Of a stretch of 16,856 nt of DNA, positions 1,265 through 13,963 are shown piece by piece. Made by a program: the position numbers and the translations under genes. The DNA lies in the IMG/VR virus record IMGVR_UViG_2516143027_000005, positions 1 through 16,856 of that record. One strand, given 5' to 3'. How positions within the stretch are numbered: the first letter of the stretch is position 1; every line of letters begins with the position of its first letter. The DNA comes from a virus. Taxonomy: Duplodnaviria; Heunggongvirae; Uroviricota; Caudoviricetes. The notes beneath the pieces were generated by a model. The model was not told the origin of the DNA. It saw only the letters and a list, made by a program, of their open reading frames with translations, and ran no database searches.

Positions 1265-1510
1265 ATGAAAATTTTTGCAATAGTCATTACATGTATACTG
1301 GCATTGATTGCAGGATTATGGCTTTACATGGATCCTGGTTTTGATTCTATTGTTGCATTTTTGGCTGCAGTTAGCGCTTTAGCTGGATTACTTATCACTA
1401 CAAAAAATAAATATAATTCTATGAGTCAATCAGTTGGTGATAATTCAATTGGTGTCCAGGCTGGCGGTGATATTAAAATTGATTGTATAAATACAGGTGA
1501 TAAAAAATAA
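1265..1510 (+). CDS. small membrane protein (81 aa) with two predicted transmembrane helices
   Basis: RBS aggaga 7 nt before the ATG. Hydrophobic stretches IFAIVITCILALIAGLWLY and IVAFLAAVSALAGLLITT, then a polar C-terminal tail. AT-rich codons. Confidence 0.6.
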   Translation: MKIFAIVITCILALIAGLWLYMDPGFDSIVAFLAAVSALAGLLITTKNKYNSMSQSVGDNSIGVQAGGDIKIDCINTGDKK

Positions 1511-1519
1511 GGAGGATAT

Positions 1520-2377
1520 ATGTTTAGTGATAAACAAAAGCAACAAATAGGTAATAATTCGTATGCAATTCAAGCTGGAAATAATGTAAATGTTTCAGGG
1601 ATGTCGTTTTCCGAGGTTAGAGAACTATTCAACATTCTCTTCGAAAATCAGTTCCCAAAATTGAAAGATGTTGCTTATGCTGCAGCTCAAGAGAATGCAA
1701 AAGATTTTGAAGAGCGTGTCGTTTCGGATTTAACAAAAAACGTTGATAGATTGATTATTGATAAATTTTGCGATCCGGACGTTCAGGCTACATTGACTGA
1801 GGCATTAAAGTCATCAGCCAGAAAGGGAAAGAAAGCTAATATGGATGTGCTTTCTCAGTTGTTAGTTGAACGAGTCTCCAATAACAATGACGATTTTAGA
1901 GATATAGTCTTAACGGAGGCAGTTACTGTCGTTCCAAAGTTAACACAGCAACAAATATCACTTATAACGATAGTTTTTCTTCTCAAGAATGTTGAGATCA
2001 AAGATCCTGTTAATGGTGTTCGATTGGATTTGTTGGAGCACAATTTTAGAAATTTTGAACCAATGTATACTAATGGGTTTAATTTGTCTCAAGCCCAGAT
2101 ATATCACATTCAATATGCAGGGGCTTGTTCATGGAATACTTTTTTAGGGATAGATGTTGAAGACTATTTCATGGATAAATATCCGACTGATATAAAAGAT
2201 AAGAGTGCGTATATTTCAAATCTTAAGTTAGTTGCCCCTCATGTGTCTGCATTTTTAGAAAATTTTTCAAAGAGCAACTATCAAGGAATTGAACTAACAA
2301 GTGTAGGGCAAGCAATTGCTCTAGCCGTTATTTCAAGATACGTAGGAAGATTGGATTATAATATTTGGTTAAAATAG
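1520..2377 (+). CDS. hypothetical protein (285 aa), unknown function; candidate effector partnered with the upstream membrane protein
   Basis: RBS aggagg before the ATG at 1520, 9 bp after the upstream stop, so an operon arrangement. No Walker A or other motif recognised. Followed by a terminator. Confidence 0.6.
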   Translation: MFSDKQKQQIGNNSYAIQAGNNVNVSGMSFSEVRELFNILFENQFPKLKDVAYAAAQENAKDFEERVVSDLTKNVDRLIIDKFCDPDVQATLTEALKSSARKGKKANMDVLSQLLVERVSNNNDDFRDIVLTEAVTVVPKLTQQQISLITIVFLLKNVEIKDPVNGVRLDLLEHNFRNFEPMYTNGFNLSQAQIYHIQYAGACSWNTFLGIDVEDYFMDKYPTDIKDKSAYISNLKLVAPHVSAFLENFSKSNYQGIELTSVGQAIALAVISRYVGRLDYNIWLK

Positions 2378-2400
2378 GGCAGTATCTGCCCTATTTTATT
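2376..2400. terminator. bidirectional terminator hairpin between convergent genes (285-aa ORF and Q)
   Basis: Stem agggcag (2376-2382) / ctgccct (2386-2392), loop tat, with T-rich tracts on both strands. Confidence 0.55.
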
Positions 2401-3427
2401 ATAATTCATATGGTAGGAAAGAGATTATTTCATCACTCAACCATTCATTAATTTCTTTGATTCGCTTTTGCAGCGGTATCAACTCGTTGCGGACAAAAAC
2501 CTTACTAGCTTTCTCCACATCCCCAAAACCCCCAACATTATTAGGCATAATCCCCATCATTTGCGGCGGCACGCGGTGTGCCGCCATCATGTCATCCCGG
2601 CTCACGTTCTTGATATTCAGAAACTCATCCTTCGCCGCGACCTCTGACAACGGGATGATCTGAAGCCCGTCCTTTTTGCCGTTAGGCGAGTACATAAACA
2701 GGTTGCGGAAGTTGCCAGGGCCTTTGGCGCTTTTCATCGCATTGCGGAGGTTGTTCACATCCTCCTGGTTCTGCGCAGCGTCGGTCATGTACATGATGAA
2801 GCCAGCATGACTGCCGTTAATGTAATACTTTCGACGGAACAGCGTGGCGGACTCATTGAGCAGGGCGGACGGAATGGCAGAAAGATAGCCGGGCAGGCCG
2901 TAGATCTCCTGGTTAATGTCCGGTTCCATCAGATGAAAAATGCTGCCTTTCGTGAACTGATACGGCTGGGTTGTCATACCGTATTGCACAAACCAGTAGG
3001 TATCCAGGTCTAACCCGCGTCGGGTGTATTTTGCCAGAGCAGGCTCAAGGGCGATAACTTCACCGAAGCGGTTCGTGCGTTTCTCCAGGTAGGCGTTACC
3101 AAATACCAGATAGTCCTGCACAAAACGGGTAAATGCCTGCTGGCTGAGCAGCGGGTGGGGGATGTAGGTACTGGTCAGAATGTTGCACTTTACTGCAATC
3201 GGGGAACTGTGATGCACGGCAGCGCGGAAGGTGCGCGCCAGTCCGTCAAAGCTGACGGGTGGTTCATACCAACGGTCCATCTGTACGCATTCCACATAGT
3301 CCAGCAGTTCACGGCGGTCCAGAACCGGAACGGGATCGCCGAAGCTGAATGCTTCGGCTGAAGTCTGGTTTTTATGCTGGATCTGATTCATCGCCGCTGC
3401 GCGGTTTTTCTTACTCTTTCCCATCAA
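2399..3427 (-). CDS. Q: portal protein (P2 gpQ-like)
   Basis: 342-aa ORF directly downstream of the terminase gene on the minus strand with an ATGA start/stop overlap. Size and position match P2 Q. Confidence 0.85.
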   Translation of the reverse strand: MMGKSKKNRAAAMNQIQHKNQTSAEAFSFGDPVPVLDRRELLDYVECVQMDRWYEPPVSFDGLARTFRAAVHHSSPIAVKCNILTSTYIPHPLLSQQAFTRFVQDYLVFGNAYLEKRTNRFGEVIALEPALAKYTRRGLDLDTYWFVQYGMTTQPYQFTKGSIFHLMEPDINQEIYGLPGYLSAIPSALLNESATLFRRKYYINGSHAGFIMYMTDAAQNQEDVNNLRNAMKSAKGPGNFRNLFMYSPNGKKDGLQIIPLSEVAAKDEFLNIKNVSRDDMMAAHRVPPQMMGIMPNNVGGFGDVEKASKVFVRNELIPLQKRIKEINEWLSDEIISFLPYEL

Positions 3428-5190
3428 AAAATCTCCACAATATTGCTGGTATTGGCAGACTCGCCCTGCAGCGGTTCGTTAAACAGTGCGTGCATCGTTG
3501 CCCAGGCCAGATCGGCATGGCTGGCTTCTTCGCTGCGGCTGGCTTCATAGGTCGGGCGGTTGCCGCTGGCGGTGGTGGCGCGACGGATTGCCATGAATGA
3601 CTGCGCAATGTCGGTGTGCCCGGCGTCAAACTCCAGACGGCGGTGGCTGATAATGTCGTAGGCCTTGAGTACCAGGGCGTTTTTAACATTGGGGTTGTAG
3701 ACAAACTCCCGGACGGCAGGAAAGAACGCTTTCACGTTCTCATAAACCCCGTGACCAACGCCGGTTGAGTCGATACCGATATAGGTCACGTTGTACTGTT
3801 CGGTCAGTTTTTTGATGGCGTCAGCCTGGGCGCGGAAGTCCATCCCGCGCCACTGGTGACGCTCAAGAATGCGGAACTTACCACCAGGCACGGCTGGCGG
3901 TGCCACCACCACGCATCCGGCGCTGTCGCCGTTTTGCGTACCTTTTGCCGGGTCATAACCGATCCACACTTCGCGCCAGCCAAACGGGCGCAGAGCCAGT
4001 GCATGAAAGTCGGTCCAGACTTCCCAGCTGTCCACCATGCACGCCTGCAGCTCGCTGAGCGGAAATACGGACGCGAGATCGTCCACAAACTCGCACATCA
4101 GCAGGTTCTGGTATTCGTCCGGGCTGTACTCCATGCGCAACTGGTCAAGGTCGAACAGGTTACAGCCGCCGCGCACCGCATCTTCCACGGTGACTATCTG
4201 GCGGTATTGCCCGTCTGCGCACAGCAGGCCGGGGGCCAGATTGCTGTGGGACAGGTCGATGTCCACCTTGTCGGCCTTGTTGCGCCCACGGTTGAACAGC
4301 GCACCGGACCAGAACGGATAAGCACTGTGTGTCAGGCTGGATGGCGTGGAAAAATAGGTTTGTCGCCATTTTTTGTGAATAGCCATACCGGAAGCCACTT
4401 TGCGCAGCTCCTGGAATTTCGGTATCCAGAAATATTCATCCAGATACAGGTTGCCGTGATAACTCTGGGCCGTGCGGGCATTGGTGCCGAGGAAGTAAAG
4501 CGTGGCCCCGTTAGGAAGCACCATCGGATCGCCTTTCAACTCCACCCCCACTTCTTTGGCGAAGTCGATGATGTACTGCTTAAAGACGTGGGCCTGTGCC
4601 TTGCTGGCGGAAAGGAAAATCTGGTTACGTCCGGTAAGCAGGGCGTCAATCAGGGCTTCACGGGCAAAGTAAAAGGTCGCGCCGATCTGGCGTGACTTCA
4701 GCAGGTTGCGGATGCGGTTGGTTTTTCCGGCTTCCCACCAGTGGCGCTGGTAGTTGAACATGGAGGAATGGAAGATTTCTTCCAGCTTCTCAATCTGTTC
4801 ATCGGTGAAAACGTTCTTTTCCGGCTGACGGCGCGGGCCTTTGTTACGGTTGGCGACGTTAGGGTTTAAGTCGGCTTCGTTGCCGCCATTGTTAAACTTG
4901 CCGATCCGCGCGTGGCGTTCCGACTGGTGCGCCAGCAGGTCAATCTCTTTGAAATCTTTCCCTTCTTTGTGCTCCTTCATAATGAGCTGGCAGTAGCGTG
5001 CGGCGGTGGTGAGCTGCATCTGATCCAGCGGCCCATAGTCACCCCACTTGTCGCGTTTTTTCCAGCTGTGAACGGTTGCAACTTTCTCGCCCAGCATTTC
5101 AGCAATGCGGGCGACGCGGTATCCCTGAAAGTACAGCAGCATGGCCTGCCGACGGGGATCGAGATCTGCGGGTGTCAGTGTGGTGTTCAT
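3424..5190 (-). CDS. P: terminase large (ATPase) subunit (P2 gpP-like)
   Basis: 588-aa ORF divergent from the O gene. Size and position match P2 P. Confidence 0.85.
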   Translation of the reverse strand: MNTTLTPADLDPRRQAMLLYFQGYRVARIAEMLGEKVATVHSWKKRDKWGDYGPLDQMQLTTAARYCQLIMKEHKEGKDFKEIDLLAHQSERHARIGKFNNGGNEADLNPNVANRNKGPRRQPEKNVFTDEQIEKLEEIFHSSMFNYQRHWWEAGKTNRIRNLLKSRQIGATFYFAREALIDALLTGRNQIFLSASKAQAHVFKQYIIDFAKEVGVELKGDPMVLPNGATLYFLGTNARTAQSYHGNLYLDEYFWIPKFQELRKVASGMAIHKKWRQTYFSTPSSLTHSAYPFWSGALFNRGRNKADKVDIDLSHSNLAPGLLCADGQYRQIVTVEDAVRGGCNLFDLDQLRMEYSPDEYQNLLMCEFVDDLASVFPLSELQACMVDSWEVWTDFHALALRPFGWREVWIGYDPAKGTQNGDSAGCVVVAPPAVPGGKFRILERHQWRGMDFRAQADAIKKLTEQYNVTYIGIDSTGVGHGVYENVKAFFPAVREFVYNPNVKNALVLKAYDIISHRRLEFDAGHTDIAQSFMAIRRATTASGNRPTYEASRSEEASHADLAWATMHALFNEPLQGESANTSNIVEIF

Positions 5191-5236
5191 GGCACAAACC
5201 TACAGCCTTGAATGAAGGCTTTCCCCGCCTGCGGTT

Positions 5237-5254
5237 TGTGTGGTTGTCGGTACA
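5237..5254. promoter_or_regulatory. candidate Ogr-type late activator site (TGT-N12-ACA) in the P/O divergent region
   Basis: tgtgtggttgtcggtaca lies in the 142-bp gap between the P start (5190) and O start (5333). The motif is short enough to occur by chance. Confidence 0.3.
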
Positions 5255-5332
5255 AATACCGCGCATTGTTTCACTGCCCCCATCACCGCAACCATAAGGC
5301 TCCAGTAAGTTTTTTCTAACGGAGCACGGCTC

Positions 5333-6166
5333 ATGACAGTGAAAGCAAAGCGTTTTCGCATCGGGGTGGAAGGTGCCACTACCGACGGACGCGGAATCCA
5401 GCGTGAATGGCTGGAACAGATGGCAGCCAGCTACAACCCGGCGGTGTATACCGCGCTGATTAACCTTGAGCACATCAAGTCTTATCTGCCGGACAGCACC
5501 TTTAACCGCTACGGCAAGGTGACGGCGCTGTTTGCTGAAGAAATCACGGAGGGTCCGCTGGCGGGCAAGATGGCACTGTATGCCGACGTTGAGCCAACGG
5601 AGTCCCTGGTGGAACTGGTGAAAAAAGGCCAGAAATTATTCACCTCTATGGAAGTCAGCCCGAAGTTTGCTGATACGGGCAAAGCCTACCTGGTCGGCCT
5701 GGCTGCCACTGATGACCCAGCCAGTCTGGGTACGGAAATGCTGACATTCAGCGCCAGCGCAGCCCATAACCCGCTGGCAAACCGCAAGCAGAATCCCGCC
5801 AATCTCTTTACCGCCGCAGAGGAAACGGTGATCGAACTGGAAGAAATCCAGGATGACAAACCGTCCCTGTTTGCCCGTGTCACGGCGCTGTTTACAAAAA
5901 AAGAGCAGTCCGACGATGCCCGGTTTTCTGATGTGCATAAGGCCGTGGAACTGGTCGCCACTGAGCAGCAAAACCTGAGTGTGCGCACCGAAAAATCCCT
6001 TTCTGAGCAGGAAGAACGTCTGTCTGAGCTGGAGACAGTTCTGCAGGCACAACAGGCCGCCTTTAACGAACTGGTGGACAAGCTGAGCCATGAAGACAGC
6101 CGCCAGGACTACCGCCAGCGTGCAACGGGCGGTAACGCCCCCGCTGACACTCTGACCAATTGCTGA
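5333..6166 (+). CDS. O: capsid scaffolding protein (P2 gpO-like)
   Basis: 277-aa ORF, first rightward late gene, RBS ggag upstream. Position and size match P2 O. Confidence 0.85.
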   Translation: MTVKAKRFRIGVEGATTDGRGIQREWLEQMAASYNPAVYTALINLEHIKSYLPDSTFNRYGKVTALFAEEITEGPLAGKMALYADVEPTESLVELVKKGQKLFTSMEVSPKFADTGKAYLVGLAATDDPASLGTEMLTFSASAAHNPLANRKQNPANLFTAAEETVIELEEIQDDKPSLFARVTALFTKKEQSDDARFSDVHKAVELVATEQQNLSVRTEKSLSEQEERLSELETVLQAQQAAFNELVDKLSHEDSRQDYRQRATGGNAPADTLTNC

Positions 6167-6182
6167 TGGAGCACAAAACCTG

Positions 6183-7241
6183 ATGAAGAAGAATACCCGC
6201 TTTGCTTTTAACGCTTACCTGCAGCAGCTGGCGCGTCTGAACGGTGTGGCAGTTGAAGAACTGTCCAGCAAGTTCACCGTGGAGCCGTCTGTACAGCAGA
6301 CGCTGGAAGACCAGATCCAGCAGTCCGCCGCTTTCCTGACGCTGATTAACGTCACGCCAGTGACTGAGCAGTCCGGTCAGCTGCTGGGGCTGGGTGTTGG
6401 CAGCACCATTGCCGGAACCACTGACACCACCGCGAAAGAGCGTGAACCTGTCGATCCGACGCTGATGGTCGATGTGGAATACAAATGCGAACAGACCAAC
6501 TTTGACACAGTGCTGACCTACGCGAAGCTGGACCTGTGGGCGAAGTTTCAGGATTTCCAGGTGCGTATCCGTAACGCCATCGTGAAACGTCAGGCACTGG
6601 ACCGCATCATGATCGGCTTTAACGGCGTGAAGCGTGCGAAAACCTCCAACCGCAGCGAAAACCCGCTGCTGCAGGATGTGAACAAAGGCTGGTTGCAGAA
6701 AATCCGTGAGGATGCACCGGATCACGTCATGGGCAGCACCACCACGGGCGGTGAAACCACACCGGGTGCGGTGAAAGTCGGGAAAGGTGGCGAATATGCC
6801 AACCTGGACGCCGTGGTGATGGATGCCGTTAACGAGCTTATCGACGTGGTCTATCAGGACGATGACGATCTGGTTGTGATTTGCGGTCGTGAACTGCTGT
6901 CTGACAAGTATTTCCCGCTGGTCAACAAAGAGCAGGAAAACAGTGAAAAACTGGCTGCCGATATGATCATCAGTCAGAAACGCATGGGTGGCCTGCAGGC
7001 CGTGCGTGCGCCGTTCTTCCCGCCGAATGCGCTGCTGATCACCCGTTTGGATAACTTGTCCATCTACTGGCAGGAAGACACCCGCCGCCGTTCAGTTATC
7101 GACAACCCGAAACGTGACCGGATTGAAAATTTTGAATCCGTTAACGAAGCCTACGTGGTTGAGGACTACCGCTGCGCCGCACTGGTGGAAAACATCCAGA
7201 TTGGCGACTTCAGCGCCGCCGCAGCAGAAGCCGGAGCGTAA
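6183..7241 (+). CDS. N: major capsid protein (P2 gpN-like)
   Basis: Long stretches match remembered P2 gpN (RFAFNAYL, KFTVEPSV, QDFQVRIRNAIVKRQ, IGFNGVKRA, KYFPLVNKEQENSE, LSIYWQED). Confidence 0.9.
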   Translation: MKKNTRFAFNAYLQQLARLNGVAVEELSSKFTVEPSVQQTLEDQIQQSAAFLTLINVTPVTEQSGQLLGLGVGSTIAGTTDTTAKEREPVDPTLMVDVEYKCEQTNFDTVLTYAKLDLWAKFQDFQVRIRNAIVKRQALDRIMIGFNGVKRAKTSNRSENPLLQDVNKGWLQKIREDAPDHVMGSTTTGGETTPGAVKVGKGGEYANLDAVVMDAVNELIDVVYQDDDDLVVICGRELLSDKYFPLVNKEQENSEKLAADMIISQKRMGGLQAVRAPFFPPNALLITRLDNLSIYWQEDTRRRSVIDNPKRDRIENFESVNEAYVVEDYRCAALVENIQIGDFSAAAAEAGA

Positions 7242-10307: not shown

Positions 10308-10701
10308 AGCGGTGCCTTATGTCCGCAATAACCCGGACAAACTGCATCTGTTTGTGGATAACGGTTCGCTGGTTGCCACGGGGGCCAGCTCCATGTCATG
10401 GGAGTACCGTTACACCCTCAACGTGGTGATTGAGGATTTCAGCGGCGACCAGAATCTGCTGATGGCCCCGGTTTTGCTGTGGCTGAGGGATAACCAGCCC
10501 GATGCCATCAATAACCCGGCGTTACGGGAAAAGCTATTCACCTTTGAGGTGGATATTCTGCGCAACGATGTCTGTGATATCAGCCTGAACCTGCAACTGA
10601 CGGAGCGTGTGCTGGTCAGCACTGACGGCAGTGTGTCGAGCGTTGAAGGTATAGCGGAACCTGATGCACCTGAAGAAATGTGGACGGTGAAACGTGGCTG
10701 A
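10270..10701 (+). CDS. R: tail completion protein R (P2 gpR-like)
   Basis: GTG at 10270 with RBS aggag 7 nt upstream, preferred to the TTG at 10249 used by the ORF track. Position after the lysis genes matches P2 R. Confidence 0.7.
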   Translation: MNKPQSLRHALNKAVPYVRNNPDKLHLFVDNGSLVATGASSMSWEYRYTLNVVIEDFSGDQNLLMAPVLLWLRDNQPDAINNPALREKLFTFEVDILRNDVCDISLNLQLTERVLVSTDGSVSSVEGIAEPDAPEEMWTVKRG

Positions 10702-11152
10702 ACTGCAGAAGGTGGACGACTGGCTGAGTGCCTTGCTGGCGAATCTGGAACCAGCCACGAGAAGCCGCATGATGCGCCAGCTGGCGCAGGAACTGCGCCG
10801 GACACAGCAGCAGAATATCAGGATGCAGCGCAACCCTGACGGCAGCAGCTATGAACCGCGACGGGTAACAGCACGCAGTAAAAAGGGGCGCATCAAACGT
10901 CAGATGTTTACAAAGCTGCGCACCACAAAATACCTGAAAACTGCCGCCAGCGCGGATACTGCCAGCGTACAGTTTGAAGGTAAGGTACAGCGCATTGCCC
11001 GCGTTCACCATTACGGCCTACGTGATCGCGTCAGCCGCAAAGGACCTGAGATCCGTTACGCAGAGAGAAAATTGCTTGGATTAAATGGATGTGAAAAATT
11101 AATTCGAAAAATATTCATTATGAATTTATTTTCTGGGGATTGGCTGGCATAA
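10694..11152 (+). CDS. S: tail completion protein S (P2 gpS-like) with an island-derived C-terminus
   Basis: GTG start overlapping the R stop. The conserved-looking core (RIARVHHYGLRDRV) is GC-rich; the last ~20 codons are AT-rich like island 2. Confidence 0.7.
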   Translation: MAELQKVDDWLSALLANLEPATRSRMMRQLAQELRRTQQQNIRMQRNPDGSSYEPRRVTARSKKGRIKRQMFTKLRTTKYLKTAASADTASVQFEGKVQRIARVHHYGLRDRVSRKGPEIRYAERKLLGLNGCEKLIRKIFIMNLFSGDWLA

Positions 11153-11173
11153 AAGCCAGCCTTTATTTTTTTT
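11142..11173 (+). terminator. rho-independent terminator after S
   Basis: Stem ggctggc (11142-11148) / gccagcc (11155-11161), loop ataaaa containing the S stop codon, then a T-run 11162-11173. Confidence 0.6.
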
Positions 11174-12029
11174 ATGTGATGGCCCCTATCTTTTGATTGT
11201 AATAACTATAATCAGCATGTTCTTCTGTATAAAAAATCTCAAATGCAGACAAGATGTTTGCGTAAAAACTATCCTTGGATATAGAGGTTTTTTTATTGAT
11301 GGATGCCAAAAAGTTTGTTATAAATCTTAATGATGCAGAGAAAAGAAAGTGCCCTTTCACCCAATGATTTATAGATGTATTTTCTGGGAATTGAATGTTG
11401 TTTTTTTCTGCTAAACCATTAGTAGTAAACGATTCAGGTAGTCTATTGATATATTCATCTATTTTTTTCTTGCATATATTGTATGAATTTCTTGATTGCA
11501 TAAAACGATCACAGGAATCACCAATTACGGAGCATCCTAATTTATTTAAATGATTGTGAATATCTAGTATTATTAAGTTCTCAATGTTGCTATAGAAGTT
11601 AGAAAGCCAATTTCCTACATCTATTTCCTGCATTTTTTTTGTGCAAAAACGGCCTGTGTTTTTGAGTATGTGTGATATGATTTTTTCATCAATGATTGTG
11701 TTTTCTATTGAATATCCCTTTGTGTAAATAATATTTGTATGCTTTACTATGTTGTCAGAAAAATGGTTTAGATCCGAATCTCTGGCAACTATGGCGTTTA
11801 TTTCTCCTGAGGTTATTTTTTCGATATATGGTTGTAAGGCTTCACATCCACCAACATCTTGAACTTCTACATTAAAACGACCATTTTTTTTAAAAATTAT
11901 TTCCCAAAAAGCAATGTCATCTTCACCTTCAACATAGACCATAATATCAGCATCATAAAATAAACTGATCACATTTTCCGCTTCATTAGACCAAGAAAAG
12001 TTTTCTGCATTAGAATCATTGATTAGCAT
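11172..12029 (-). CDS. ariB: TOPRIM-like (DUF4435-type) putative nuclease, AriB-like
   Basis: 285 aa. N-terminal VYVEGEDD (E34/E36) and ARDSD (D84-x-D86) give the Glu plus DxD spacing typical of TOPRIM/OLD-family nucleases. Start overlaps the upstream ATPase gene by 14 bp. Confidence 0.6.
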   Translation of the reverse strand: MLINDSNAENFSWSNEAENVISLFYDADIMVYVEGEDDIAFWEIIFKKNGRFNVEVQDVGGCEALQPYIEKITSGEINAIVARDSDLNHFSDNIVKHTNIIYTKGYSIENTIIDEKIISHILKNTGRFCTKKMQEIDVGNWLSNFYSNIENLIILDIHNHLNKLGCSVIGDSCDRFMQSRNSYNICKKKIDEYINRLPESFTTNGLAEKNNIQFPENTSINHWVKGHFLFSASLRFITNFLASINKKTSISKDSFYANILSAFEIFYTEEHADYSYYNQKIGAIT

Positions 12030-13272
12030 TGACTAATCTCTCCATATTGAAAATGGCGTTTTTATATTTAGATGCAACTTCAGGAGAATGGGTTGCAGCA
12101 ATAATTTGTGCATTAGGATTTAATTTTTTTATGGCAGGGATAATATTTCTTTGCCATTGAATATGTAAGGAAAGCTCAGGCTCATCAGTTAGGAAAATAT
12201 ATTGTTGCCCTCTTTGTAAGAGGGTCTCAATGAATAAAATTAGCAGTTGTTTTTCACCAGAAGATAAACTTTCTAAAACTATTGGCCCATAGGTGTTATT
12301 TATGACTAACAATCCCGATTGAAAATGAAATTCTTTATCGGTGATAAAATTTCTTAGTATGCTTAAGAATTGTTCTATTGGAGAAAATATTTTTGATGTT
12401 TTCTCTTTTGAAGTTAATGACATTTTGATTATTTTTTGTGTTTTTCTCAATGCTTCGATCGAACGAATATCAAAGCCTCTTTCACTTTTATTCTTTAATT
12501 CCGAAATGGTATTATTAATTGTTTCAACATGAAAGCTGATTTTTTTACGAATGTTTTGATCAATAGCATTTAACTGTGTGTATGCATTAAGGAGGTTTTG
12601 TTTTTCTTCCTCTTTGTTAAAGTTAATGTTGTAAGCAGGATTCTCCATATCTTCCTTGCTATAAAGTATTGATGCCAGAACCTCTTTTTGTAGTTCTAAT
12701 GCGATATCTCTGGCTTTCTGGGATAGTTCAAGTTGATATTTTGTAAGTTCCTGTATTAATTCTGATAACTTATAGTCAACAGGGTTGATAAAACGAGAGC
12801 CATATTTATCTTTAACTTCAAAATCATCACTATTTCTTAATCTGTAAACAGATAAAGAAGAAAGCGAGACTAGTTTTGCTAGTTCTGTTCTTAGTTCTTC
12901 TGTTTCATCATGCACTCTACGTCTATAACTAAGAGATATTCTTCTATCATCAGTGTTAAATAAACGAATTGTGTGTTTTTTAGATGAAAGCTGATATTCT
13001 ATTTTGGAAAATGGAGATGTATCGCTTTCAAGTTTTTTGACTTTGATTGTTTTTGTCTTTTTTTTATCTTTAAGTTTTATTTCGGCACTATTGAAATCAG
13101 CATTGTTAATACTGTCCAAATCAAGGGATAATATTGAGTGCAGAAGGTTCATAAAGGTTGTTTTACCCGTGCCATTTCGGCCTATAATAATGTTTACATC
13201 ATCATTAAATGAGCAGGAACAGTTTAATCGCTGCCAAAAGCCATTAATTGTGACGCTTTGAATTTTATACAT
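12016..13272 (-). CDS. ariA: ABC-type (AAA_15/AAA_21-like) ATPase, AriA-like
   Basis: 418 aa. Walker A GRNGTGKTT at residues 31-39, ABC signature-like LSSGEKQ, Walker B/D-loop IFLTDEPELSLH and H-loop ATHSPE near the C-terminus. RBS aagga before the ATG. Confidence 0.65.
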   Translation of the reverse strand: MYKIQSVTINGFWQRLNCSCSFNDDVNIIIGRNGTGKTTFMNLLHSILSLDLDSINNADFNSAEIKLKDKKKTKTIKVKKLESDTSPFSKIEYQLSSKKHTIRLFNTDDRRISLSYRRRVHDETEELRTELAKLVSLSSLSVYRLRNSDDFEVKDKYGSRFINPVDYKLSELIQELTKYQLELSQKARDIALELQKEVLASILYSKEDMENPAYNINFNKEEEKQNLLNAYTQLNAIDQNIRKKISFHVETINNTISELKNKSERGFDIRSIEALRKTQKIIKMSLTSKEKTSKIFSPIEQFLSILRNFITDKEFHFQSGLLVINNTYGPIVLESLSSGEKQLLILFIETLLQRGQQYIFLTDEPELSLHIQWQRNIIPAIKKLNPNAQIIAATHSPEVASKYKNAIFNMERLVNANQ

Positions 13273-13308
13273 CTATGTATCCTTTATTATTAGTTGAACT
13301 ACTTAAAT

Positions 13309-13338
13309 TTATAATCATTTGTGTCATCCTCAGTACAA
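13309..13338 (-). promoter_or_regulatory. putative sigma70 promoter for the island 2 operon (minus strand)
   Basis: On the minus strand: ttgtac, 18-nt spacer, ttataa, about 37 nt upstream of the ATG. Overlaps the TGT-N12-ACA dyad. Confidence 0.25.
13320..13337. promoter_or_regulatory. candidate Ogr-type late activator site (TGT-N12-ACA) upstream of V
   Basis: tgtgtcatcctcagtaca, about 50 bp upstream of the V start, where the P2 V-operon late promoter would be expected. Confidence 0.35.
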
Positions 13339-13384
13339 TTATGCCGTTTGGAAGATATTATTTCAAATGTTTAATATATACGGT

Positions 13385-13963
13385 ATGAACGCACAATTAA
13401 CCGAAATCATGCGCCTTATCACCAATCTGATCCGCACAGGTGTAGTTACCGAAGTGGACCGGGAGAACTGGCTTTGCCGGGTGAAAACGGGCGACCTTGA
13501 AACCAACTGGATCAGCTGGCTGACGCTGCGCGCGGGTAATGCCCGCACATGGTGGCGACCATCGGAAGGTGAGCAGGTGGTGGTGCTGAGTCTGGGAGGC
13601 AATCTGGAAACTGCCTTTGCGTTGCCCGCTGTCTATTCGAATCAGTTCGCGCCACCTTCGACGTCGGCGGACGCCTGCGTGACAGAACATCCTGACGGTG
13701 GCTGGTTTGAATACGAACCCGCCACCGGGCGCTGGTATGTCAGGGGCATCAAATCCATGGTCATTGAGGCTGCCGACAACATCACCCTGAAAACCAGTGA
13801 GTTTGTGCTGGAGGCTGACCGCACGCGTATTAACAGCGAAGTAGTGATCAATGGTGGCGTTACCCAGGGCGGCGGTGCAATGAGTTCTAACGGAATTGTG
13901 GTTGATGCACATCAGCATACTGGCGTCCTGAAAGGCGGCGATACAACCGGAGGCCCGGTATGA
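13385..13963 (+). CDS. V: baseplate spike / assembly protein V (P2 gpV-like)
   Basis: 192 aa. ATG at 13385 chosen over the ORF-track start at 13319, whose extra N-terminal codons lie in AT-rich island DNA. Confidence 0.75.
   Translation: MNAQLTEIMRLITNLIRTGVVTEVDRENWLCRVKTGDLETNWISWLTLRAGNARTWWRPSEGEQVVVLSLGGNLETAFALPAVYSNQFAPPSTSADACVTEHPDGGWFEYEPATGRWYVRGIKSMVIEAADNITLKTSEFVLEADRTRINSEVVINGGVTQGGGAMSSNGIVVDAHQHTGVLKGGDTTGGPV

What the first reader, a model, noticed from the sequence alone, without database searches (positions are those of the whole stretch)
11172..13272. ABC ATPase plus TOPRIM/DUF4435-like two-gene cassette (PARIS/AriAB-like) inserted antisense between tail genes S and V
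Seen in sequence: two translationally coupled minus-strand genes (14-bp overlap) in a strongly AT-rich island inside a GC-rich late operon. The upstream 418-aa protein has Walker A GRNGTGKTT, an ABC signature-like LSSGEKQ and a C-terminal DEPE...H-loop. The downstream 285-aa protein has the Glu (VEGEDD) plus DxD (RDSD) pattern of TOPRIM nucleases. Established knowledge: a separate ABC ATPase with a DUF4435/TOPRIM partner is the architecture of PARIS (AriA/AriB), an abortive-infection system triggered by phage anti-restriction proteins and often carried in P2-like prophage and P4 satellite hotspots; OLD and Gabija GajA fuse the same two modules into one protein. Inference: this is a lysogen-expressed defence moron. 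Whether it is a canonical PARIS or a diverged relative cannot be decided by eye.
Basis: partly seen in the sequence, partly recalled or inferred. Interest (0 to 1): 0.85.

Follow-up and report, generated by a model that had tools for sequence, protein, structure and literature searches.

The report
PARIS-type defence cassette in P2-like prophage

Summary
Two minus-strand ORFs (12016-13272, 418 aa; 11172-12029, 285 aa) overlap by 14 bp inside a 2.3-kb island (11066-13384) of 31% GC, against 56% in the flanks.

The 418-aa protein is an AAA_15/AAA_21 ABC ATPase and the 285-aa protein is a DUF4435/TOPRIM protein. Both score well above the thresholds that Rousset et al. 2022 used to detect PARIS. 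PADLOC's best models are AriA and AriB. For both predicted structures the best solved match is its PARIS counterpart (AriA E 4e-19; AriB probability 1.0, TM 0.56-0.58). The ATPase motifs and the five TOPRIM acidic residues are invariant in the clade.

The nuclease is only 13-22% identical to the studied AriB. It lacks that protein's AriA-contact arginines and its two tRNA-holding lysines, so trigger and target may differ.

The site is the boundary between the two late operons P_O and P_V, the known P2 orf30 moron site. In other E. coli prophages it carries TIR, SIR2, GmrSD and AIPR genes. This clade occurs in 31 of 5426 complete E. coli genomes.

Verdict: a new member of a known kind, of low to moderate interest.

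The parts
12016..13272 (-). ariA-like gene: 418-aa ABC ATPase (AAA_15/AAA_21). Walker A K37 (codon 13162-13164), signature LSSGEKQ 336-342, Walker B D363/E364 (E364 codon 12181-12183), H-loop H395. Arg-rich loop DDRRISLSYRRR at residues 108-119.
11172..12029 (-). ariB-like gene: 285-aa DUF4435/TOPRIM nuclease. Invariant E34, D38, D84, D86, E109 and G226-H227.
12016..12029 (-). 14-bp stop/start overlap (ATGCTAATCAATGA) with a GGAGAG Shine-Dalgarno inside the end of ariA. An overlap of this kind is kept in all six homologous cassettes examined.
13338..13366 (-). Sigma-70-like promoter TTGAAA-N17-CATAAT, 66 nt upstream of the ariA ATG. Both hexamers are identical in the 77%-identical allele, while the spacer has diverged.
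13320..13337 (+). TGT-N12-ACA dyad of the Ogr/B-dependent late promoter P_V, 47 nt before V's ATG. It directly abuts the -10 hexamer of the cassette promoter on the other strand.
   Evidence: consensus from PMC3931495
11142..11161 (.). GC-rich hairpin GGCTGGC-ATAAAA-GCCAGCC between the convergent genes S and ariB. A T-run follows on the + strand. S's stop codon lies in the loop. The same stem with a different loop is present in the 77% allele.
11066..13384 (.). The exchanged AT-rich island (GC 0.306). Homology to prophages with an empty or differently filled S-V site stops at 11065 and resumes at 13384/13385. There are no flanking repeats.
10694..11152 (+). Gene S (virion morphogenesis/tail completion). 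Its last ~28 codons lie inside the island and differ with each cargo.
13385..13963 (+). Gene V (baseplate spike), first gene of the P_V operon.

Best explanation
This is a two-gene PARIS-family (class 4 OLD-like) abortive-infection system, carried as cargo at the S-V moron site of a 186/P2-like E. coli prophage.

**Proposed mechanism, by analogy with E. coli B185 PARIS:**
1. The cassette is transcribed from its own sigma-70 promoter, antisense to the late genes, and the two ORFs are translationally coupled.
2. The AriA-like ABC ATPase assembles into an oligomer that holds the AriB-like TOPRIM nuclease inactive.
3. ATP-dependent binding of a phage-made trigger to AriA releases AriB. The trigger may be an acidic, DNA-mimicking anti-restriction protein, given the conserved Arg-rich loop at residues 108-119.
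4. Free AriB dimerises and uses its two-metal site (E34, D38, D84, D86, E109) to cut host RNA, most likely tRNA anticodon loops.
5. Translation stops and the infection aborts.

**Shown here:** gene structure, domain families, catalytic-residue conservation, fold matches, purifying selection, a conserved promoter and the site context.

**Inferred:** complex formation, the trigger, the target, abortive infection and expression in the lysogen.
For: **Detection rule.** Both proteins pass the published PARIS rule (AAA_15 >= 32 or AAA_21 >= 27 bits, plus DUF4435 >= 27 bits; PMC9122126). The scores here are 79.2, 70.9 and 93.9 bits.

**Model and sequence matches.**
- PADLOC's best models are AriA at 2.2e-38 and AriB at 2e-21.
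- By phmmer, AriA (8ux9_B) is the best PDB sequence at 1e-20.

**Structure.**
- The AF2 model of the ATPase (pLDDT 81) matches AriA chains best: E 4e-19 to 1e-16, TM 0.57-0.64. Retron PtuA follows at 4e-13.
- The AF2 model of the DUF4435 protein (pLDDT 92.7) matches AriB over its full length: 8ux9_A and 8v46_D, probability 1.0, TM 0.56-0.58. The OLD C-terminal region follows at E 0.015.

**Catalytic residues.** hhalign of the clade alignment against B185 AriB puts E34/D38/D84/D86/E109 on E26/D30/D88/E90/E122, the published catalytic residues. All five are invariant in 32 homologues. Walker A, signature, Walker B and H-loop are invariant in 30 ATPase homologues.

**Selection and modularity.**
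- Synonymous differences are saturated (pS 0.71-0.81) while pN is 0.09-0.45. The stop/start overlap is kept in all six cassettes.
- The pair travels as a unit in unrelated contexts: Yersinia prophage, Aeromonas and a cyanobacterium.

**Promoter.** The promoter hexamers are conserved in the 77% allele.

**Site.** The S-V site holds other defence-type cargo such as TIR, SIR2, GmrSD and AIPR.
Against: - No functional data exist for this clade.
- AriB similarity to the studied protein is low: 13-15% identity by Foldseek, hhalign E only 0.0035 with probability 9%, and no hit by phmmer or a clade profile in the PDB.
- Several residues that matter in B185 PARIS are not conserved. AriB R28 and R31 contact AriA there, but are E36 and I39 here.
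- AriB K60 and K64 hold the anticodon loop in B185. Here they fall in a stretch with an 8-residue gap.
- hhalign aligns only the first ~93 residues of AriA, so the pore residues R116/R119 could not be mapped.
- One tested PARIS (E. coli O42) was inactive from its native promoter, so expression from the native promoter is not guaranteed.
Confidence: 0.85

Rival explanations
1. It is another ABC-ATPase plus TOPRIM defence system (AbiL-like, MADS MAD3-MAD4 fragment, split OLD or Gabija-like) and not PARIS. In that case it would act as an ATP-driven nuclease on phage DNA, without trigger-released RNA cleavage.
For: - The ATPase also matches PtuA (2.6e-23), mad3 (3.9e-20) and GajA (2.8e-13) models.
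- The TOPRIM part gives a sub-threshold OLD-like_TOPRIM hit (0.011) and OLD C-terminal structures come second in Foldseek.
- Burman et al. place AbiL and MADS3-4 in the same ATPase+TOPRIM superfamily.
Against: - AriA and AriB are the best matches in every comparison, by about 15 orders of magnitude in PADLOC and 6 in Foldseek.
- The second protein matched only AriB/AriAB models in PADLOC.
- There is no helicase (GajB), HNH (PtuB), methyltransferase or reverse transcriptase next to the pair, here or in five other contexts.
Confidence: 0.07
2. It is mainly a toxin-antitoxin-like addiction module that stabilises the prophage or the cargo site, with no real role against other phages.
For: - PDB depositors call AriA an antitoxin, and Pfam names AAA_21 a 'putative AbiEii toxin' domain.
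- The cyanobacterial homologue lies among PIN toxin-antitoxin genes.
Against: - In B185 PARIS, deleting either gene was non-toxic and abolished defence, which excluded a classical toxin-antitoxin system.
- The same site in other prophages carries single-gene defence-type cargo such as TIR, SIR2 and GmrSD.
- About half of the related prophages have the site empty, so the site has no need for an addiction module.
Confidence: 0.05
3. It is a decaying, non-functional remnant.
For: - The clade is rare: 31 of 5426 complete E. coli genomes.
- In strain S56 both genes are annotated in two pieces.
Against: - Both ORFs are intact, with all catalytic residues in place.
- pN is far below pS in every comparison, and the overlap, Shine-Dalgarno sequences and promoter hexamers are conserved.
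Confidence: 0.03

Closest known systems
PARIS (AriA/AriB) of E. coli B185, P4-satellite hotspot (Rousset 2022, PMC9122126; Burman 2024, PMC11464382; structures 8UX9, 8V45-8V49)
   Same: - Two-gene order with the ATPase first and the DUF4435 nuclease second.
- AAA_15/AAA_21 ABC ATPase with intact Walker A Lys, Walker B Glu, signature and H-loop.
- DUF4435 nuclease with the same five acidic residues and the R/K-G-H motif.
- Full-length fold matches for both proteins.
- An Arg-rich stretch at about residues 108-119 of the ATPase, where B185 AriA has the pore arginines R116/R119.
- Carried by a P2/P4-type mobile element.
   Different: - Identity is 20-23% for AriA and 13-22% for AriB.
- The ATPase is 418 aa. 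The PDB AriA chain is 464 residues, and B185 AriA is described as 53-55 kDa.
- The AriA-contact arginines R28 and R31 of AriB are replaced by E36 and I39.
- The K60/K64 'tweezer' helix region is shortened.
- It sits in the helper-type phage at the S-V junction, not in a P4 satellite.
- Trigger, target and activity are untested.
PARIS-1 of E. coli O42 (distant homologue tested by Rousset 2022)
   Same: Same architecture. hhalign of the clade profile against its AriB gives E 0.00029 over the TOPRIM half, with FEGDDD / VDQD / AIEN aligned to VEGEDD / RDSD / SIEN.
   Different: Only the N-terminal ~100 residues align. PARIS-1 needed an inducible promoter to show defence.
P2 Old, Gabija GajA and other OLD-family nucleases (classes 1-3)
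   Same: An ABC ATPase plus a TOPRIM nuclease used for phage defence. P2 Old is also a cargo gene of P2-like phages.
   Different: Those fuse both modules in one protein and use the OLD-type TOPRIM. Here the modules are separate genes, and the nuclease is DUF4435 (PF20469 only 16.7 bits, below its 23.2 cut-off).
P2 orf30 and other cargo at the S-V moron site
   Same: Same insertion point between S and V, one of the three classical moron regions of P2-like phages (PMC6823313). Each cargo sits upstream of a retained TGT-N12-ACA dyad.
   Different: P2 orf30 is a single 261-bp ORF of unknown function. Here the cargo is a 2.3-kb two-gene system.

Membership tests
PARIS (AriA/AriB) | ABC ATPase matching Pfam AAA_15 (>= 32 bits) or AAA_21 (>= 27 bits), the detection rule of Rousset 2022 | tested here: met
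   AAA_15 79.2 bits and AAA_21 70.9 bits; rule quoted
PARIS (AriA/AriB) | Partner protein matching Pfam DUF4435 (>= 27 bits) | tested here: met
   DUF4435 93.9 bits, E 1.7e-26, covering profile positions 2-236 of 238
PARIS (AriA/AriB) | The two genes adjacent on one strand, ATPase first | tested here: met
   14-bp overlap on the minus strand. The same arrangement is found in six homologous loci
PARIS (AriA/AriB) | Intact ATPase catalytic residues (B185 K39 Walker A, E393 Walker B) | tested here: met
   K37 and E364 are aligned by phmmer to 8ux9_B and invariant in 30 homologues
PARIS (AriA/AriB) | TOPRIM acidic residues (B185 E26, D30, D88, E90, E122) | tested here: met
   hhalign maps E34, D38, D84, D86 and E109 onto them. 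All are invariant in 32 homologues. The B185 numbering was verified.
PARIS (AriA/AriB) | Folds of both proteins match solved AriA and AriB better than any other solved structure | tested here: met
   AriB probability 1.0, TM 0.56-0.58. AriA E 4e-19, TM 0.57-0.64.
PARIS (AriA/AriB) | AriA hexamer sequestering AriB, with the AriB R28/R31 salt bridges to AriA | tested here: inconclusive
   The aligned positions are E36 and I39, so those contacts are not conserved. Burman et al. report that AriA and AriB co-evolve within clades.
PARIS (AriA/AriB) | Activation by a phage anti-restriction protein (Ocr) and abortive infection | not testable with these tools
   Needs plaque and toxicity assays
PARIS (AriA/AriB) | tRNA anticodon-loop cleavage by released AriB (B185 K60/K64 hold the loop) | tested here: inconclusive
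   The K60/K64 helix region aligns to a stretch with an 8-residue gap and no matching lysines. The R/K-G-H motif (B185 R236) is kept as K225-G226-H227. The activity itself cannot be tested here.
OLD family class 1 (P2 Old) / class 2 (Gabija GajA) | ATPase and OLD-type TOPRIM fused in one polypeptide; for Gabija, an adjacent GajB helicase | tested here: not met
   There are two separate ORFs. PF20469 scores 16.7 bits, below its 23.2 cut-off. No helicase gene is adjacent.
Septu / retron type I-A (PtuA-PtuB) | PtuA-type ATPase with an HNH nuclease partner (and a retron reverse transcriptase and ncRNA for type I-A) | tested here: not met
   The partner is DUF4435, not HNH. NCBIfam PtuA scores 66.8 bits against a cut-off of 500. 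There is no Rfam match in the window.
MADS / AbiL | MAD3-MAD4 within a multi-gene methylation-associated system; or an AbiLi/AbiLii pair | tested here: inconclusive
   The mad3 model matches the ATPase more weakly than AriA does (3.9e-20 against 2.2e-38). The nuclease matched only AriB/AriAB models in PADLOC. No methyltransferase is nearby. I did not verify that the PADLOC copy holds AbiLii models.

The most novel reading that the evidence does not exclude
This roughly 420-aa/280-aa clade may be a functionally distinct PARIS subtype. It would sense a different phage trigger through its strongly conserved Arg-rich loop, and cut a different RNA, because the tRNA-holding lysines of B185 AriB are missing. 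Its promoter is also wired back-to-back with the Ogr/B-dependent P_V promoter: the -10 hexamer abuts the activator dyad. Binding of the late activator during the prophage's own lytic growth could therefore switch the defence off, protecting the carrier phage from its own system.
Probability: 0.25. Interest if true: 0.5.

Novelty: new member of a known kind. Interest (0 to 1): 0.3.

Why it matters
PARIS has been studied mechanistically in essentially one representative (B185), which lies in one of 11 clades. This cassette offers a compact, natural, diverged representative. It keeps the catalytic core but has changed the AriA-AriB contacts and the substrate-holding element, so it could show which parts of the PARIS mechanism are general and whether other clades have other triggers or RNA targets.

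It also documents that the S-V junction of P2-like prophages is a real defence-cargo site. Each cargo there brings its own 3' end of gene S and leaves the P_V activator site in place. This matters for annotation and for mining that site (DUF6216 and hypothetical proteins there are untested candidates). It does not change current understanding.

Tried and rejected
- **Sequence searches for AriB in the PDB.** phmmer with the 285-aa protein and hmmsearch with a 32-sequence clade profile found no AriB chain, even at E 10. Only fold comparison and hhalign made the link.
- **Mapping the AriA pore residues.** hhalign of the ATPase alignment against the published, truncated B185 AriA sequence aligned only residues 4-101. 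R116/R119 could therefore not be mapped, and the Arg-rich-loop parallel rests on position alone.
- **Insertion signatures.** No direct or inverted repeats flank the island, only short AT-rich chance matches. This gives no sign of transposition or site-specific insertion; exchange by recombination in the conserved flanks fits better.
- **RNA genes.** There is no Rfam family anywhere in the window, so no retron or other ncRNA partner.
- **TGT-N12-ACA count.** The window-wide count is not above chance: 4 found against 4.3 expected. The argument rests on the positions, at P_P/P_O and P_V, and on conservation across non-homologous site variants. The copy at 12294-12311 inside ariA is taken as chance.
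- **Literature by accession.** No paper mentions the RefSeq proteins WP_000906671, WP_000276794, WP_001744203 or WP_001744202.
- **Sequenced phages.** Megablast of the cassette against 50,697 phage records matched only the V flank. tblastn found one phage, vB_EcoM-813R9, carrying the 44% allele.
- **Rejected readings.** Fused OLD, Gabija, Septu, retron and MADS are rejected for the reasons given in the membership table.
Full report
**1. The observation**

The window is the late region of a P2/186-like prophage. It runs from the end of the replication gene and a DinI-like gene through portal Q, terminase P, O, N, M, L, X, the lysis genes, R and S, then V, W, J and I.

Two minus-strand ORFs lie at the stated coordinates: 12016-13272 (418 aa) and 11172-12029 (285 aa). 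They overlap by 14 bp. Each has a Shine-Dalgarno sequence at normal spacing: AAGGA 7 nt before the first ATG, and GGAGAG 8 nt before the second, inside the end of the first gene.

Comparison with prophages whose S-V site is empty or holds other cargo shows where homology stops and resumes. It stops at 11065, inside gene S about 28 codons before its stop, and resumes at 13384/13385, the ATG of V. The exchanged island, 11066-13384, has GC 0.306 against 0.563 and 0.559 in the flanks.

**2. What the two proteins are**

*Family and model matches.* The 418-aa protein matches Pfam AAA_15 (6e-22, 79.2 bits) and AAA_21 (2.5e-19, 70.9 bits). The 285-aa protein matches DUF4435 almost end to end (1.7e-26, 93.9 bits), with only a sub-threshold OLD-like TOPRIM hit.

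These scores satisfy the operational definition by which PARIS was detected: AAA_15 at 32 bits or more, or AAA_21 at 27 or more, together with DUF4435 at 27 or more (PMC9122126). In PADLOC the best models are AriA (2.2e-38) and AriB (2e-21). The second protein matched nothing but AriB and AriAB models. NCBIfam has no specific model for either protein.

*Solved structures.* AriA is the best sequence match for the ATPase (1e-20). AriB is not found by phmmer or by a profile of 32 clade members.

Structure prediction closed that gap:
- The DUF4435 model (pLDDT 92.7) matches AriB chains 8ux9_A and 8v46_D over the full length. Probability is 1.0, TM 0.56-0.58 and identity 13-15%. OLD C-terminal regions follow far behind.
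- The ATPase model (pLDDT 81.2) matches fifteen AriA chains first (E 4e-19 to 4e-14, TM 0.50-0.64, identity 20-23%). Retron PtuA comes next at 4e-13.

*Catalytic residues.* I took the B185 AriB sequence from Table S2A of Rousset et al.. hhalign of the clade alignment against it gives E 0.0035 over 200 columns. The alignment places E34, D38, D84, D86 and E109 on E26, D30, D88, E90 and E122, and G226-H227 on the G-H of B185's RGH motif (R236). Those five are the residues Burman et al. name as the two-metal TOPRIM site, and the B185 numbering was checked.

All of these are invariant in 32 homologues of 32-71% identity. Walker A (K37), the signature, Walker B (D363/E364) and H395 are invariant in 30 ATPase homologues.

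**3. Evidence that it is a working unit**

Three alleles of the cassette occur in E. coli. Relative to this window their AriA/AriB identities are about 99/99%, 85/71% and 63/44%. All three lie at the S-V site of P2-like prophages.

More distant members are found in three other settings:
- next to the CI repressor of a Yersinia P2-like prophage;
- next to a Y1 transposase in Aeromonas;
- in a cyanobacterial chromosome.

In each case the same two genes are present with a stop/start overlap. Synonymous sites are saturated (pS 0.71-0.81) while non-synonymous differences are 0.09-0.45, so both genes are under purifying selection. The ATPase changes about half as fast as the nuclease.

**4. The site and its regulation**

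P2 has four late promoters with a TGT-N12-ACA activator site. P_O drives O...S and P_V drives V...G (PMC3931495). The island therefore lies between two late operons, not inside one.

This is one of the three classical moron regions of P2-like phages, the position of P2 orf30 (PMC6823313). A 2026 survey already reports defence hotspots within P2 tail genes (PMC13586616).

A TGT-N12-ACA dyad lies 46-47 nt before V's ATG in all five site variants I compared. Their surrounding sequence is otherwise unrelated. In the window it is at 13320-13337. The window's other dyads are at 5179-5196 and 5237-5254, in the P-O divergent region.

On the minus strand, a TTGAAA-N17-CATAAT promoter (13366-13338) is identical in both hexamers in the 77% allele, although the spacer differs. 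Its -10 hexamer touches the dyad. This suggests that the cassette has its own constitutive promoter and that late-activator binding could interfere with it. That is inference only.

A GC-rich hairpin (11142-11161) sits between the convergent S and ariB genes. There are no flanking repeats.

In an evenly spaced sample of 60 of the 1074 E. coli records that carry these flanks, about half have the site empty. The rest carry a range of cargo:
- TIR, AIPR, GmrSD, SIR2 and FRG-domain proteins;
- P-loop NTPases;
- DUF6216 or hypothetical proteins;
- in one case, this kind of cassette.

The clade is present in 31 of 5426 complete E. coli genomes and in one of 50,697 phage records.

**5. Mechanism**

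I commit to the PARIS mechanism as established for B185:
1. AriA oligomers hold AriB inactive.
2. ATP-dependent trigger binding releases AriB.
3. The AriB dimer cuts tRNA anticodon loops.
4. Translation stops.

What is shown here is architecture, catalytic residues, folds, selection and context. What is inferred is the complex, the trigger, the target and the phenotype.

Three differences argue for caution on the details:
- The AriB arginines that contact AriA (R28, R31) are E36 and I39 here.
- The K60/K64 helix that holds the anticodon loop falls in a stretch with an 8-residue gap.
- AriA could be aligned by hhalign only over its first ~93 residues.

The ATPase has a conserved Arg-rich loop, DDRRISLSYRRR at 108-119, with R111 and R118 nearly invariant. 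It lies at about the position of the B185 pore arginines R116/R119, which bind Ocr. That fits an acidic trigger but proves nothing.

**6. Comparison, novelty and verdict**

Fused OLD, Gabija, Septu, retron and MADS readings fail on architecture or partner domain. A pure addiction-module reading is unlikely given the B185 deletion data and the many prophages with an empty site. A remnant reading is contradicted by the selection data.

The cassette is a member of the PARIS family by every testable criterion. It lies in a diverged clade that, as far as I could find, has not been tested. The system, its presence in P2-type elements and the cargo site are all known.

I rate it a new member of a known kind, with interest 0.3.

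Noticed in passing
window 1265-2377 (+): A second AT-rich island (GC about 0.34-0.36) lies between a DinI-like gene (669-974) and portal Q (2399-3427, -). This is the cos-adjacent P2 defence hotspot of Rousset 2022. It holds two ORFs, 81 aa (1265-1510) and 285 aa (1520-2377), with no Pfam or PADLOC family. RefSeq calls the pair 'LPO_1073/Vpar_1526 family protein' plus a hypothetical protein. It is an untested candidate system in a known hotspot.
   Followed up: partly
window 11066-11152 (3' end of gene S): The last ~28 codons of S lie inside the island and differ with every cargo: window ...LLGLNGCEKLIRKIFIMNLFSGDWLA, empty site ...LLGVNDDVEAMTRDMILQWLAG, with three further versions. Each cargo therefore brings its own S C-terminus, and S's stop codon sits in the loop of the terminator hairpin.
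   Followed up: partly
S-V junction in other E. coli P2-like prophages (hits H53-H111): In a spread sample of 60 records about half have the site empty. The rest carry TIR, AIPR, GmrSD, SIR2 or FRG-domain proteins, P-loop NTPases, DUF6216 or hypothetical proteins. The site behaves as a defence hotspot. DUF6216 recurs there (7 of 60, including BL21 derivatives) and has no known function.
   Followed up: partly
window 13320-13387: The P_V dyad ends only 46-47 nt before V's ATG in all variants, and no clear Shine-Dalgarno sequence precedes V. If the dyad is centred near -55, as I recall for P2 late promoters, the V mRNA would have almost no leader.
   Followed up: no
window 5179-5196 and 5237-5254: Two TGT-N12-ACA dyads lie in the divergent P-O intergenic region, where the late promoters P_P and P_O are expected.
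   Followed up: no
window as a whole, versus E. coli complete genomes: No complete E. coli genome in the collection matches 1-2600 over more than 60% of its length (best strain PEC422, 99.3%). The cassette's 99.8% match, 2014C-3075, has a different gene (a P-loop NTPase) at the cos-adjacent hotspot. The two cargo sites therefore seem to assort independently.
   Followed up: partly
E. coli strain S56, NZ_CP010242.1 2906543-2908589 (H115): This copy of the same allele is 96.9% identical, and both genes are annotated in two pieces. It is apparently a disrupted copy.
   Followed up: no
L011 (Aeromonas veronii) 3932-6840, and Rousset Table S5: A homologous cassette sits next to a Y1_Tnp (IS200/IS605-type) transposase gene. 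Rousset's table lists 'Y1_Tnp + AAA_21/AAA_15 + DUF4435' at the P2 cos-adjacent hotspot of some E. coli. This may be a recurrent association of PARIS-type cassettes with Y1 transposases.
   Followed up: no
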